From Ruditapes philippinarum (lineage: Eukaryota), in contig NW_026865060.1 of the NCBI RefSeq assembly GCF_026571515.1, forward strand, positions 62,001 to 126,000: a DNA stretch of 64,000 bases, read 5' to 3'. Made by a program: the position numbers. This document shows, piece after piece, positions 1 to 1,181 of the stretch (positions are counted from its first letter, which is position 1; each line of letters opens with the position of its first letter).

Positions 1-1181
1 AAAGTATGTCCTAGTCTGTATTTACATGATCATTACAAGATTTGACAATTATGTAATTAAAATAATGTTAATGTAAATTAAACATATTATCTTAATAAAC
101 AAACATTGATATTCTTTTATATCTTCTAAAACTTTAGCAAAATCATCTGTGATTATATTTACTATTATTTATTACACACCTCTCAGGTTTGTTTATACTG
201 AATACAAAACCACAGTTTAAAAAAAAAGACTGAATTTCCAAAACTGGAACTTCTTCATTAAAAGAAATCTTAATTTCTGATACTTCTTCCGTCATCAACA
301 TGATATAAAGTGACAACTATTATAAAATATTGAAGAAATGACAGTGGTGTGTGTGTACCTATGAAGTTTAAGTGCCCACTGTTTCTCCTCCTCATCTGCC
401 ACAATGTAAATATCTGTAATACATAAATGTAAATATCTGTAACACAGAAATGTAAATATCTGCAAGCAGAAATGAAAATATCTGCAACGCATAAATGTAA
501 ATATCTGCTTCGCAGAAATGTAAATATCTGCAGCGCATAAATGTAAATATCTGCAACGCATAAATGTAAATATCTGCAGCGCATAAATGTAAATATCTGC
601 AACACAGAAATGTAAATATCTGCAACGCAGAAATCTAAATATCTGCTACACAGAAAACATACATTGTGTAAGGTTTTAAGTCAATAATGTTAAGTTCATA
701 TTTTTTCAAGCTTTCGTTGATGTAAAATTACAGCTGTCATTGACTAAGTCCAAAGTATATTATATGTGCACAATATATCATTATCAGATGACAAATATCA
801 AATATACACAGATATATGAAGTATTACTTATTTTTATTTCCCTTTCATACCTGTTATCAAGATTTCAGTAAAACACATATGTGCATACAATTATAATGAG
901 CATTTTGTCATCACTTCTATCAAATATGTTCATACCAACAGAATTATAGTTGTTACTTTTAACTGGGCACCTGTTTTTGATCAATTTACATAATTTCTAG
1001 ACATTTCATTAGTTAGACAAAATTAGATCACTTTTTTTAAATCTGTATTGATTCTTGATCAAAAGAAAAATTTTGATGATTCATAATACATTCATATATG
1101 AAAGTACCATGTACAAAACTTGTGTTAATACAAAATTATGCATTCATTACTTATATTTTAGAATAACTTTTGTATATTCTA

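What the first reader, a model, noticed from the sequence alone, without database searches (positions are those of the whole stretch)
359..660. RIOK2 exon 4 is preceded by an 11-copy tandem array of its own 3' splice site
Seen: the 23-bp unit spans the intron/exon junction (YRCAG|ATATTTACATT), so 11 near-identical acceptors lie at offsets 0, 23, 46, 68, 91, 114, 137, 160, 183, 206 and 229 nt from the one that gives the normal ESDIYIVA sequence. Only offsets 114 and 183 stay in frame; they are stop-free and would insert 38 or 61 aa just after the GxGKES P-loop. The other eight frameshift, including the most 5' copy, which directly follows unique intron sequence. The two proximal copies read TTACAG and the rest mostly TGCAG. 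Known: RIOK2 is an essential 40S-maturation kinase, and the first AG after the branch point is usually chosen. Inference: the spliceosome must bypass up to 10 decoy acceptors, so copy number could tune productive versus NMD-bound mRNA.
Basis: partly seen in the sequence, partly recalled or inferred. Interest (0 to 1): 0.72.

Follow-up and report, generated by a model that had tools for sequence, protein, structure and literature searches.

The report
Repeated splice acceptor in clam RIOK2
A 23-base stretch spanning the intron 3/exon 4 junction of the Manila clam RIOK2 gene has been copied into an 11-copy tandem array, a kind of junction-spanning minisatellite already described in lancelets and humans, and nothing seen here shows that it regulates the gene.

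Summary
On the minus strand, a 23-bp minisatellite (403-656, 11 copies) spans the intron 3/exon 4 junction of RIOK2. Only offsets 114 and 183 are in frame.

The window is Manila clam (Ruditapes philippinarum), not human. All four exon pieces match the NCBI RIO2-like protein P0002 exactly, and that model uses the last acceptor (413).

The array belongs to a known kind. Amphioxus 'mirages' are minisatellites that duplicate an intron/exon boundary, and one globin example is acceptor-side. The human F7, 6-16 and CBS minisatellites are the donor-side equivalents. In most of these cases the extra sites are silent.

The window is about 10% minisatellite, so the simplest reading is a tolerated by-product of a repeat-prone genome.

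New points:
- Each unit carries its own branch-point-like TTTAC 16 nt upstream of its AG.
- The most 5' decoy gives a stop codon at once.
- The true acceptor is predicted to be the most accessible of the 11.
- A 9-bp helix is predicted to enclose the whole array.

Copy-number tuning through NMD stays untested, because no transcript data or other eukaryotic genomes could be reached.

The parts
403..656 (-). 23-bp minisatellite, 11.04 copies. Each unit is the first 11 nt of exon 4 (ATATTTACATT) plus the last 12 nt of intron 3 (TCTGYGTTGCAG). One unit is 22 nt long.
   Evidence: TRF; unit table
359..413 (-). RIOK2 exon 4 (55 nt, phase 1), encoding (D)IYIVADEEEKQWALKLH(R)
   Evidence: exact match to P0002 residues 110-126
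414..1216 (-). Intron 3 (803 nt, 26.5% G+C). Its last 243 nt are array.
1217..1330 (-). RIOK2 exon 3, ending in GVGKES plus one base of the split Asp codon. The donor GT is at 1216-1215.
   Evidence: exact match to P0002 residues 72-108
1719..1863 (-). RIOK2 exon 2
   Evidence: 100% identical to P0002
4514..4579 (-). RIOK2 exon 1 coding part (ATG at 4579-4577)
   Evidence: exact match to P0002 residues 1-22
414..415 (-). AG of the acceptor used in the annotated protein (TTACAG|ATATTT)
437..644 (-). Ten decoy acceptor AGs, with the A at 644, 621, 598, 575, 552, 529, 506, 483, 461 and 438. The first exon-like bases are at 642...436.
646..648 (-). Extra TAG 3 nt upstream of the most 5' repeat acceptor (a TAGCAG, NAGNAG-type pair). 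A second such pair, AAGCAG, lies at 510-505.
668..672 (-). CTTAC, the branch-point candidate of the pre-duplication intron. A669 is 26 nt upstream of the first repeat acceptor, and a T-rich tract follows it.
   Evidence: motif match only, not mapped
429..433 (-). TTTAC inside the last repeat unit. A430 is 16 nt upstream of the true AG with no AG in between. It derives from exon sequence. The same motif is present for 8 of 11 acceptors.
   Evidence: motif match only, not mapped
660..668 (-). 5' arm (CACAAUGUA) of a predicted 9-bp helix, lying directly after A669
400..408 (-). 3' arm (UACAUUGUG) of the same helix, exon 4 nt 6-14. The helix encloses the whole array.
   Evidence: controls
382..393 (-). 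12-nt all-purine run GAGGAGGAGAAA in exon 4, a possible exonic splicing enhancer 21-32 nt from the true acceptor
   Evidence: sequence; its role as an enhancer is recalled knowledge and inference

Best explanation
This is a junction-spanning minisatellite of the 'mirage' kind in intron 3 of the Manila clam RIOK2 gene. A 23-bp segment (the last 12 nt of the intron plus the first 11 nt of exon 4) was duplicated in tandem and expanded to 10 extra units. Slippage or unequal exchange is the likely cause, in a genome where about a tenth of this window is minisatellite.

The repeats came from the exon and not the other way round. The exon part encodes the conserved DIYI motif, and the unit occurs nowhere else in the window.

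The productive mRNA uses the 3'-most acceptor (413). The most likely way this works is inferred, not shown:
- the branch point is the TTTAC that the last unit itself supplies (A430);
- the choice of this copy is helped by its nearness to the exon body (a purine-rich run and the 5' splice site 55 nt away);
- the true site lacks the small CUGC/GCAG hairpins that cover many decoy AGs.

Decoy use, where it happens, would give premature stops (8 of 10 decoys) or a 38/61-residue insert at the first position of the RIO kinase domain. That would be waste, presumably cleared by NMD. The array is most likely tolerated, neutral or slightly costly, and not a regulator.
For: The array and its register are confirmed.

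The unit is absent elsewhere in the window. Only 2 two-mismatch hits lie outside the array, against a chance mean of 1.17.

The window holds 17 separate tandem arrays covering 6,536 of 64,000 bases, and 14 of them have periods of 10-64 bp.

The four exon pieces, tested one by one, are each exact in the NCBI Ruditapes philippinarum RIO2-like protein P0002 at residues 1, 23, 72 and 110. That model therefore joins exon 3 to acceptor 413.

All 6 of the 6 bivalve homologues fetched read GKES-D[IV]YIVAD with no insert.

No protein carries array-encoded residues: 0 of 3 candidates of similar length and 0 of 20 longer candidates.

TTTAC lies 16 nt upstream, with no AG in between, for 8 of 11 acceptors including 413.

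Acceptor 413 is the only one of the 11 with no local hairpin (0.0 kcal/mol, against -0.4 to -4.9 for the others). It also has the highest predicted unpaired probability of its CAG in 4 of 4 local-folding settings.

Edge units differ from the consensus more (2, 2, 3, 3) than central units 3, 4, 5 and 7 (1, 0, 1, 0), as described for mirages (PMC3087553 section 16).

Precedent: the amphioxus BflGb6 mirage duplicates the 3' end of an intron plus the 5' part of an exon, has 3 versus 6 units in two haplotypes, and is spliced regularly by RT-PCR.
Against: I saw no transcript evidence. The use of acceptor 413 rests on one annotation-pipeline protein model and on conservation.

By the usual rules the most 5' decoy should compete well. 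It keeps the original CTTAC branch-point candidate 26 nt upstream and the most T-rich tract, and the true site's upstream signals are almost the same as those of the decoys.

A 16-nt distance from branch point to AG is short. I recall typical values as longer, and this comes from no call.

The accessibility differences are small and come from thermodynamic prediction only. Part of the difference is an edge effect: the other edge site, 642, ranks second in 2 of 4 settings and third in the other 2.

In the human 6-16 and CBS genes, two extra donor sites are in fact used (PMC1557585 introduction). Silence of the extra sites is therefore not universal.

RIOK2 is essential (recalled), so even a modest leak could matter.
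Confidence: 0.7

Rival explanations
1. One reading: the decoys are used at an appreciable rate, most products are destroyed by NMD, and array length (or unit variants) sets how much productive RIOK2 mRNA is made.
For: Eight of the 10 decoys shift the frame. The most 5' decoy gives DI-stop at once, and four of them stop inside exon 4. The most 5' decoy keeps the original branch point and pyrimidine tract. In the human 6-16 and CBS genes some repeated donor sites are used (PMC1557585 introduction).
Against: No isoform or fragment with array-derived residues is in the protein set. Amphioxus mirages and F7 pseudo-sites do not disturb normal splicing. Nothing here shows polymorphism or any link to expression. 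A window that is 10% minisatellite makes a chance hit on a junction plausible.
Confidence: 0.1
2. Structural bypass: the array is folded away. Units pair with one another through their CUGC/GCAG parts. A 9-bp helix between the intron segment directly after the old branch point (668-660) and exon 4 nt 6-14 (408-400) closes the whole array into one domain. The ancestral branch point A669 is then brought next to the true AG, and the decoy AGs are hidden in stems.
For: The helix has a pair probability of 0.73-0.99 per base pair in 5 of 5 sequence contexts, up to the whole of exon 3, intron 3 and exon 4. The arms are a perfect 9-nt inverted repeat exactly flanking the array. Shuffled flanks reach 9 bp in 4 of 3000 (30-nt flanks), 11 of 3000 (40 nt) and 49 of 3000 (60 nt) trials. 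Six of the 10 decoys have a 4-5 bp local hairpin over the CAG. Structure between branch point and 3' splice site is known to matter in yeast (PMC3239191, abstract start only).
Against: The finding is post hoc. The same 1-kb stretch holds 3 other perfect 9-10-nt inverted pairs within 400 nt. Two of the 15 other arrays in the window also have flank complements of 9 nt or more, so this may be a trait of how the arrays arise or a chance event. In the minimum-energy fold the true CAG is itself paired. The helix would compete with U2 pairing at the branch site. There is no covariation test, because no orthologous intron could be fetched.
Confidence: 0.12
3. Assembly artefact, or a rare damaged haplotype: the array is over-expanded or mis-assembled, or it sits on a non-functional allele or copy.
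For: Minisatellites are hard to assemble. The amphioxus authors found their mirage 'aberrantly assembled' in the draft genome (supplementary-file legend of PMC3087553). Published heterozygosity for this clam is 3.7-4% (PMC9803972 passage). The window contains a run of N (43595-43755).
Against: The units differ by structured substitutions and one 1-nt deletion. They are not identical, as a collapse or stutter artefact would tend to give. The flanking exons are intact and identical to a full-length 525-residue protein with Rio2_N and RIO domains.
Confidence: 0.06

Closest known systems
Amphioxus 'mirages' (Adh3, globins BflGb6 and BflGb9, troponin C, PGBD5)
   Same: Minisatellite-like tandem duplication of an intron/exon boundary, so that splice signals are reiterated. 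BflGb6 duplicates the 3' end of an intron plus the 5' part of the next exon, the same acceptor-side layout as here. Edge copies escape homogenisation. (PMC3087553 section 16; PMC3902484 passage)
   Different: The units here are much shorter than in the globins (23 bp against 150-160 bp), though within the 10-72 bp quoted for Adh3. The host is a bivalve mollusc and not a cephalochordate. Regular splicing and length polymorphism were shown there by RT-PCR and haplotypes; here they are untested. I could not read the original Adh3 paper (Canestro 2002; not held).
Human junction-spanning minisatellites: F7 IVS7 37-bp VNTR, interferon-inducible 6-16, CBS IVS13, LMNB2, PDGF
   Same: The first repeat unit spans an exon/intron boundary, so the authentic splice site is followed by many identical pseudo-sites. 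These serve as natural models of splice-site choice. (PMC1557585 abstract and introduction)
   Different: Those are donor (5') sites, where the most upstream site wins by a 5'-to-3' scanning-type process. Here the sites are acceptors, and it is the most downstream copy that must win. That needs a different logic: branch-point choice, exon definition or structure.
NAGNAG and other tandem acceptors
   Same: Closely spaced alternative 3' splice sites. Two true NAGNAG pairs sit inside the array (TAGCAG 648-643, AAGCAG 510-505).
   Different: The main spacing is 23 nt, beyond the <12-nt range in which neighbouring AGs compete directly (PMC1431707 passage). Each site has its own upstream signals.

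Membership tests
Junction-spanning minisatellite ('mirage') | Head-to-tail tandem array of a short unit (tens of bp) | tested here: met
   23-bp period, 11.1 copies, 89% matches
Junction-spanning minisatellite ('mirage') | The unit contains an authentic exon/intron boundary, so the splice signal is reiterated | tested here: met
   Each unit is 12 nt of intron plus 11 nt of exon 4. There are 11 CAG|ATATTT sites, and the exon part is fixed by an exact protein match.
Junction-spanning minisatellite ('mirage') | Normal mRNA still made from one terminal copy (the repeats do not disturb regular splicing) | tested here: inconclusive
   The annotated protein P0002 uses acceptor 413, and no protein holds array residues. 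No transcript reads could be examined.
Junction-spanning minisatellite ('mirage') | Length polymorphism or instability between haplotypes | not testable with these tools
Junction-spanning minisatellite ('mirage') | Homogenised centre and diverged edge copies | tested here: met
   Differences from the consensus for units 1-10 are 2, 2, 1, 0, 1, 3, 0, (22-nt unit), 3, 3. The fit is weak, because unit 6 is an exception.
RIOK2 / RIO2 kinase gene | Rio2 N-terminal winged-helix domain followed by a RIO domain, with close similarity to solved RIOK2 | tested here: met
   P0002 has PF09202 at residues 9-92 and PF01163 at 109-281, and matches a PDB RIOK2 chain at E = 1.6e-169. The window's exon pieces are exact in P0002. 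Only exons 1-4 lie in the window.
Recursive splice site | An acceptor directly followed by a regenerated donor (AG|GTRAGT) | tested here: not met
   All 11 sites read CAG|ATATTT.
Dispersed satellite or transposon-borne repeat | The same unit present at other loci | tested here: not met
   In the window, only 2 two-mismatch hits lie outside the array, against a chance mean of 1.17. The rest of the genome was not available.
Regulated unproductive splicing (alternative splicing coupled to NMD) | Measurable use of the frame-breaking site, stabilised when NMD is blocked, and conserved or responsive to conditions | not testable with these tools
   No RNA data. The frames would fit: 8 of 10 decoys shift the frame.

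The most novel reading that the evidence does not exclude
The clam tolerates 13 extra AGs in front of an essential exon because the array folds away. Inter-unit CUGC/GCAG pairing and a 9-bp closing helix between the branch-point-adjacent intron and the first codons of exon 4 hide the decoys and place the old branch point beside the true acceptor. Changes in unit number or in the helix arms would then leak splicing to frame-breaking decoys and set RIOK2 dosage through NMD. If so, this would be a natural acceptor-side counterpart of the F7 donor model.
Probability: 0.1. Interest if true: 0.6.

Novelty: new member of a known kind. Interest (0 to 1): 0.35.

Why it matters
This is a natural construct with 11 near-identical 3' splice sites 23 nt apart, each with its own branch-point-like motif, in front of an essential exon. 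It allows a clean test of how acceptors are chosen: branch-point choice, exon definition or RNA structure. The F7 minisatellite played the same role for donors.

It also extends 'mirage'-type junction duplications from lancelets to a bivalve. My searches found no paper with both 'RIOK2' and 'minisatellite' and no bivalve case among the papers listed. This suggests such arrays arise wherever minisatellites are dense.

As a regulatory device it is unproven, and most likely it is a tolerated accident.

Tried and rejected
Searches for array-derived protein. I searched the array's in-frame translation (window 298-645, minus strand) against the 5.8-billion protein set. Among proteins of similar length, 0 of 3 candidates scored. 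Among longer proteins, 0 of 20 scored. So there is no isoform or ORF copy from another assembly, and I could not compare array length between assemblies this way.

Calls that gave nothing.
I have no accession number and no view of isoforms in its cluster.
- The original mirage paper (Canestro 2002) is not held. I used the papers that cite it.
- Rfam at gathering scores found 0 matches in the window, so there is no intronic snoRNA or other known RNA.

Readings considered and rejected.
- Recursive splicing: the sites are not followed by GT.
- A transposon or satellite origin: the unit is confined to this array.
- An 18-nt slippage between the two GCAGAT motifs (intron end and exon nt 15-20), seen by eye. 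It does not give a 23-nt unit.

The flanking helix looked striking at first. I downgraded it after finding 3 other perfect 9-10-nt inverted pairs in the same 1 kb, and flank complements of 9 nt or more at 2 of 15 other arrays.

Not done.
- No quantitative splice-site scoring (MaxEnt-type). No trained model was on hand, and two other acceptors in the window are too few to build one.
The exons were handled one by one.
- The orthologous intron in other clams could not be examined.
- Supplementary files of PMC3087553 (the alignment of its mirage units) were not opened.

Full report
WHAT IS THERE

The gene lies on the minus strand. Reading the reverse complement gives four coding pieces.
- Exon 1 CDS, 4579..4514: MGKLNVTMLRYLSKEDFRVLTA.
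- Exon 2, 1863..1719.
- Exon 3, 1330..1217: ends ...[10 protein letters not shown] plus one base.
- Exon 4, 413..359: (D)IYIVADEEEKQWALKLH(R).

I handled the exons one at a time. Exon 2 alone was searched. It is 100% identical to P0002, a 525-residue protein that NCBI names 'serine/threonine-protein kinase RIO2-like [Ruditapes philippinarum]'. In a script, each of the four exon translations was then looked for separately. Each is an exact substring of P0002, at residues 1, 23, 72 and 110.

P0002 has Rio2_N (residues 9-92) and the RIO domain (109-281). It matches solved RIOK2 chains at E = 1.6e-169.

The window's G+C is 0.318, and the published Manila clam genome is 0.32 (PMC9803972, passage). 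The window is therefore Manila clam or a very close relative. It is not human. Only RIOK2 exons 1-4 fall inside it.

THE ARRAY

Tandem Repeats Finder gives a 23-bp array at 403-656 with 11.1 copies and 89% matches.

On the coding strand the unit is ATATTTACATT + TCTGYGTTGCAG. That is the first 11 nt of exon 4 followed by the last 12 nt of intron 3.

Eleven CAG|ATATTT junctions have their first exon base at 642, 619, 596, 573, 550, 527, 504, 481, 459, 436 and 413. One unit is 22 nt long, which accounts for the step from 46 to 68.

This is far beyond chance. The 15-mer with up to 2 mismatches gives 13 hits, against a shuffle mean of 1.17, and 0 of 100 shuffles reached 13. Eleven of the 13 hits are in the array.

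Between the old branch-point candidate A669 and exon 4 there are 14 AGs:
- the 11 repeat acceptors;
- a TAG 3 nt before the first acceptor;
- an AAG 3 nt before acceptor 504;
- one AG inside unit 1.

WHERE IT CAME FROM

The exon part of the unit encodes the conserved DIYI motif that follows the GxGKES loop. All 6 of the 6 bivalve RIOK2 proteins I fetched read GKES-D[IV]YIVAD. The unit is not found elsewhere in the window. The repeats were therefore copied from the junction. The exon was not built from a repeat.

The window is crowded with minisatellites. It holds 17 separate arrays, 14 with periods of 10-64 bp, covering 6,536 of 64,000 bases.

The edge units differ more from the consensus (2, 2, 3, 3 differences) than central units 3, 4, 5 and 7 (1, 0, 1, 0). 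Unit 6, with 3 differences, is an exception. This is the usual turnover pattern of tandem arrays.

WHAT EACH ACCEPTOR WOULD GIVE

- Offsets 114 and 183 stay in frame without stops. They would insert 38 or 61 Cys- and aromatic-rich residues between GVGKES and DIY, which is profile position 1 of the RIO domain. I infer that such an insert in the nucleotide-binding hairpin would cripple the kinase.
- The most 5' decoy (642) gives DI-stop at once, because unit 1 has a C-to-G change that makes a TAG.
- Offsets 229, 160, 91 and 46 stop inside exon 4.
- Offsets 206, 137, 68 and 23 leave exon 4 out of frame.

SIGNALS

The original 3' splice-site context lies in front of the FIRST acceptor: CTTAC with A669 26 nt upstream, followed by a T-rich tract. 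By the ordinary rules that decoy looks strong.

Eight of the 11 acceptors, including 413, have a yUnAy-type TTTAC whose A is 16 nt upstream, with no AG in between. The next AG upstream of 413 is only 23 nt away. The rule is that the first AG more than about 12-15 nt past the branch point is used (PMC1431707, passages). It follows that the branch for the true site should lie in the last unit (A430), which is a copy of exon sequence.

So the spliceosome need not 'scan past' ten AGs. The open question is why it would pick the last of several equivalent modules.

Candidates for that choice, none of them shown:
- Nearness to the exon body. There is a 12-nt purine run at 393-382, and the donor is 55 nt away. 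Their role rests on recalled knowledge of purine-rich enhancers and exon definition.
- RNA structure.

On structure:
- Acceptor 413 is the only one of the 11 with no local hairpin. The 6 decoys with a 4-5 bp CUGC/GCAG-type stem over the CAG score -2.4 to -4.9 kcal/mol, and 4 score -0.4.
- Its CAG has the highest predicted unpaired probability in 4 of 4 local-folding settings: 0.27, 0.14, 0.13 and 0.05.
- The differences are modest, and the other edge site (642) ranks second in 2 of the 4 settings and third in the other 2.

A HELIX AROUND THE ARRAY

The minimum-energy fold pairs CACAAUGUA (668-660, directly after A669) with UACAUUGUG (408-400, exon 4 nt 6-14). This encloses the whole array.

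The pairs have probabilities of 0.73-0.99 in 5 of 5 contexts, up to the whole of exon 3, intron 3 and exon 4. The repeat finder confirms a perfect 9-nt inverted repeat with 251 nt between its arms. Shuffled flanks reach 9 bp in 4 of 3000 (30-nt flanks), 11 of 3000 (40 nt) and 49 of 3000 (60 nt) trials.

Against reading much into this:
- it was found post hoc;
- the same 1-kb stretch has 3 other perfect 9-10-nt inverted pairs;
- 2 of the 15 other arrays in the window also have flank complements of 9 nt or more;
- the true CAG is itself paired in the minimum-energy fold;
- no orthologous intron was available for a covariation test.

I keep it as a minority mechanism.

EVIDENCE ON USAGE

Only indirect evidence was within reach.
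- The annotated protein uses acceptor 413.
- No protein among 5.8 billion carries array-encoded residues.
- No RNA reads and no eukaryotic genome collection were open.

Junction usage, array polymorphism and the orthologous intron all stayed unchecked.

WHAT IS KNOWN

- The globin gene BflGb6 has exactly the acceptor-side layout, the 3' end of an intron plus the 5' part of the next exon. Its units are 150-160 bp, with 3 versus 6 units in two haplotypes.
- Adh3 units are 10-72 bp.
- RT-PCR indicated regular splicing, although many units keep their AG/GT signals (PMC3087553, section 16 read in full).
- A second paper says the Adh and troponin C mirages 'do not generate aberrant mRNAs' (PMC3902484, one passage).

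In humans the F7 intron 7 37-bp VNTR, 6-16, CBS, LMNB2 and PDGF have the donor-side equivalent.
- In F7 the pseudo-sites are functional but never compete.
- In 6-16 and CBS two extra sites are used (PMC1557585, abstract and introduction passages).

My searches found no paper with both 'RIOK2' and 'minisatellite'. No bivalve example appeared among the papers listed (6 listed; 12 listed of 393).

VERDICT

The structure is a new member, in a mollusc and on the acceptor side with a short unit, of a known kind of junction-spanning minisatellite.

The simplest account is a tolerated product of a repeat-prone genome in which the last copy is spliced. The NMD-tuning idea remains an untested possibility (about 0.1).

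Its main value is as a natural test bed for 3' splice-site choice.

Noticed in passing
window 1-64000: Very high minisatellite density: 17 separate tandem arrays, 14 with periods of 10-64 bp, covering 10.2% of the window.
   Followed up: partly
window 22272-24348: A 2-kb array of a 20-bp unit (CAGACTCTACATGACAATCA), about 103 copies at 82% matches. It coincides with the strongest GC/AT skew in the window.
   Followed up: no
window 37585-38709 (+) and 45539-46705 (+): Two long uninterrupted reading frames (374 and 388 aa). Both match Pfam Acyltransferase (PF01553) plus Acyltransf_C (PF16076). They look like a tandem pair of apparently intronless lysophospholipid-acyltransferase-like genes.
   Followed up: partly
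window 30486-31073 (-): A 195-aa open frame matching the Ammonium Transporter family (PF00909, E = 1.6e-53), probably one exon of an Amt gene. Two minisatellites (31384-31632, 31913-31985) lie just upstream of it on that strand.
   Followed up: no
window 63190-63973 (+): A 30-bp minisatellite whose unit contains a splice-like string: a pyrimidine-rich run ending in TTTACAG and followed by GT. I did not check whether it also copies a splice junction. The window ends at 64000.
   Followed up: no
window 6836-7211 and 47392-47906: The 40-nt flanks of these two arrays carry perfect complements of 10 and 12 nt. Together with the RIOK2 array, that makes 3 of 16 arrays with flank complements of 9 nt or more. 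This may come from imprecise array edges or palindromic units, or it may hint that hairpin-prone sites seed minisatellites here.
   Followed up: partly
window 8635-9127 (and on to about 9346): A 170-bp tandem repeat (2.9 copies, 94% matches) with repeated open frames on the minus strand. The one frame I tested (8984-9346) had no Pfam match.
   Followed up: no
window 43595-43755: A run of 161 N (an assembly gap or masked stretch). It was left untouched.
   Followed up: no
P0004 (548 aa, unnamed Logan-derived contig of 2318 nt): A transcript-length contig encodes a RIOK2 whose exon 2 and exon 4 parts are identical to the window but whose acidic C-terminal region differs from P0002. It is probably from a sister venerid species or a divergent haplotype. 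Its GKES/DIY junction is normal.
   Followed up: partly
window 975-984 / 1055-1064, 787-795 / 904-912, 812-820 / 1091-1099: Three further perfect 9-10-nt inverted pairs inside intron 3. This shows how readily such pairs occur in this 26.5% G+C intron.
   Followed up: no
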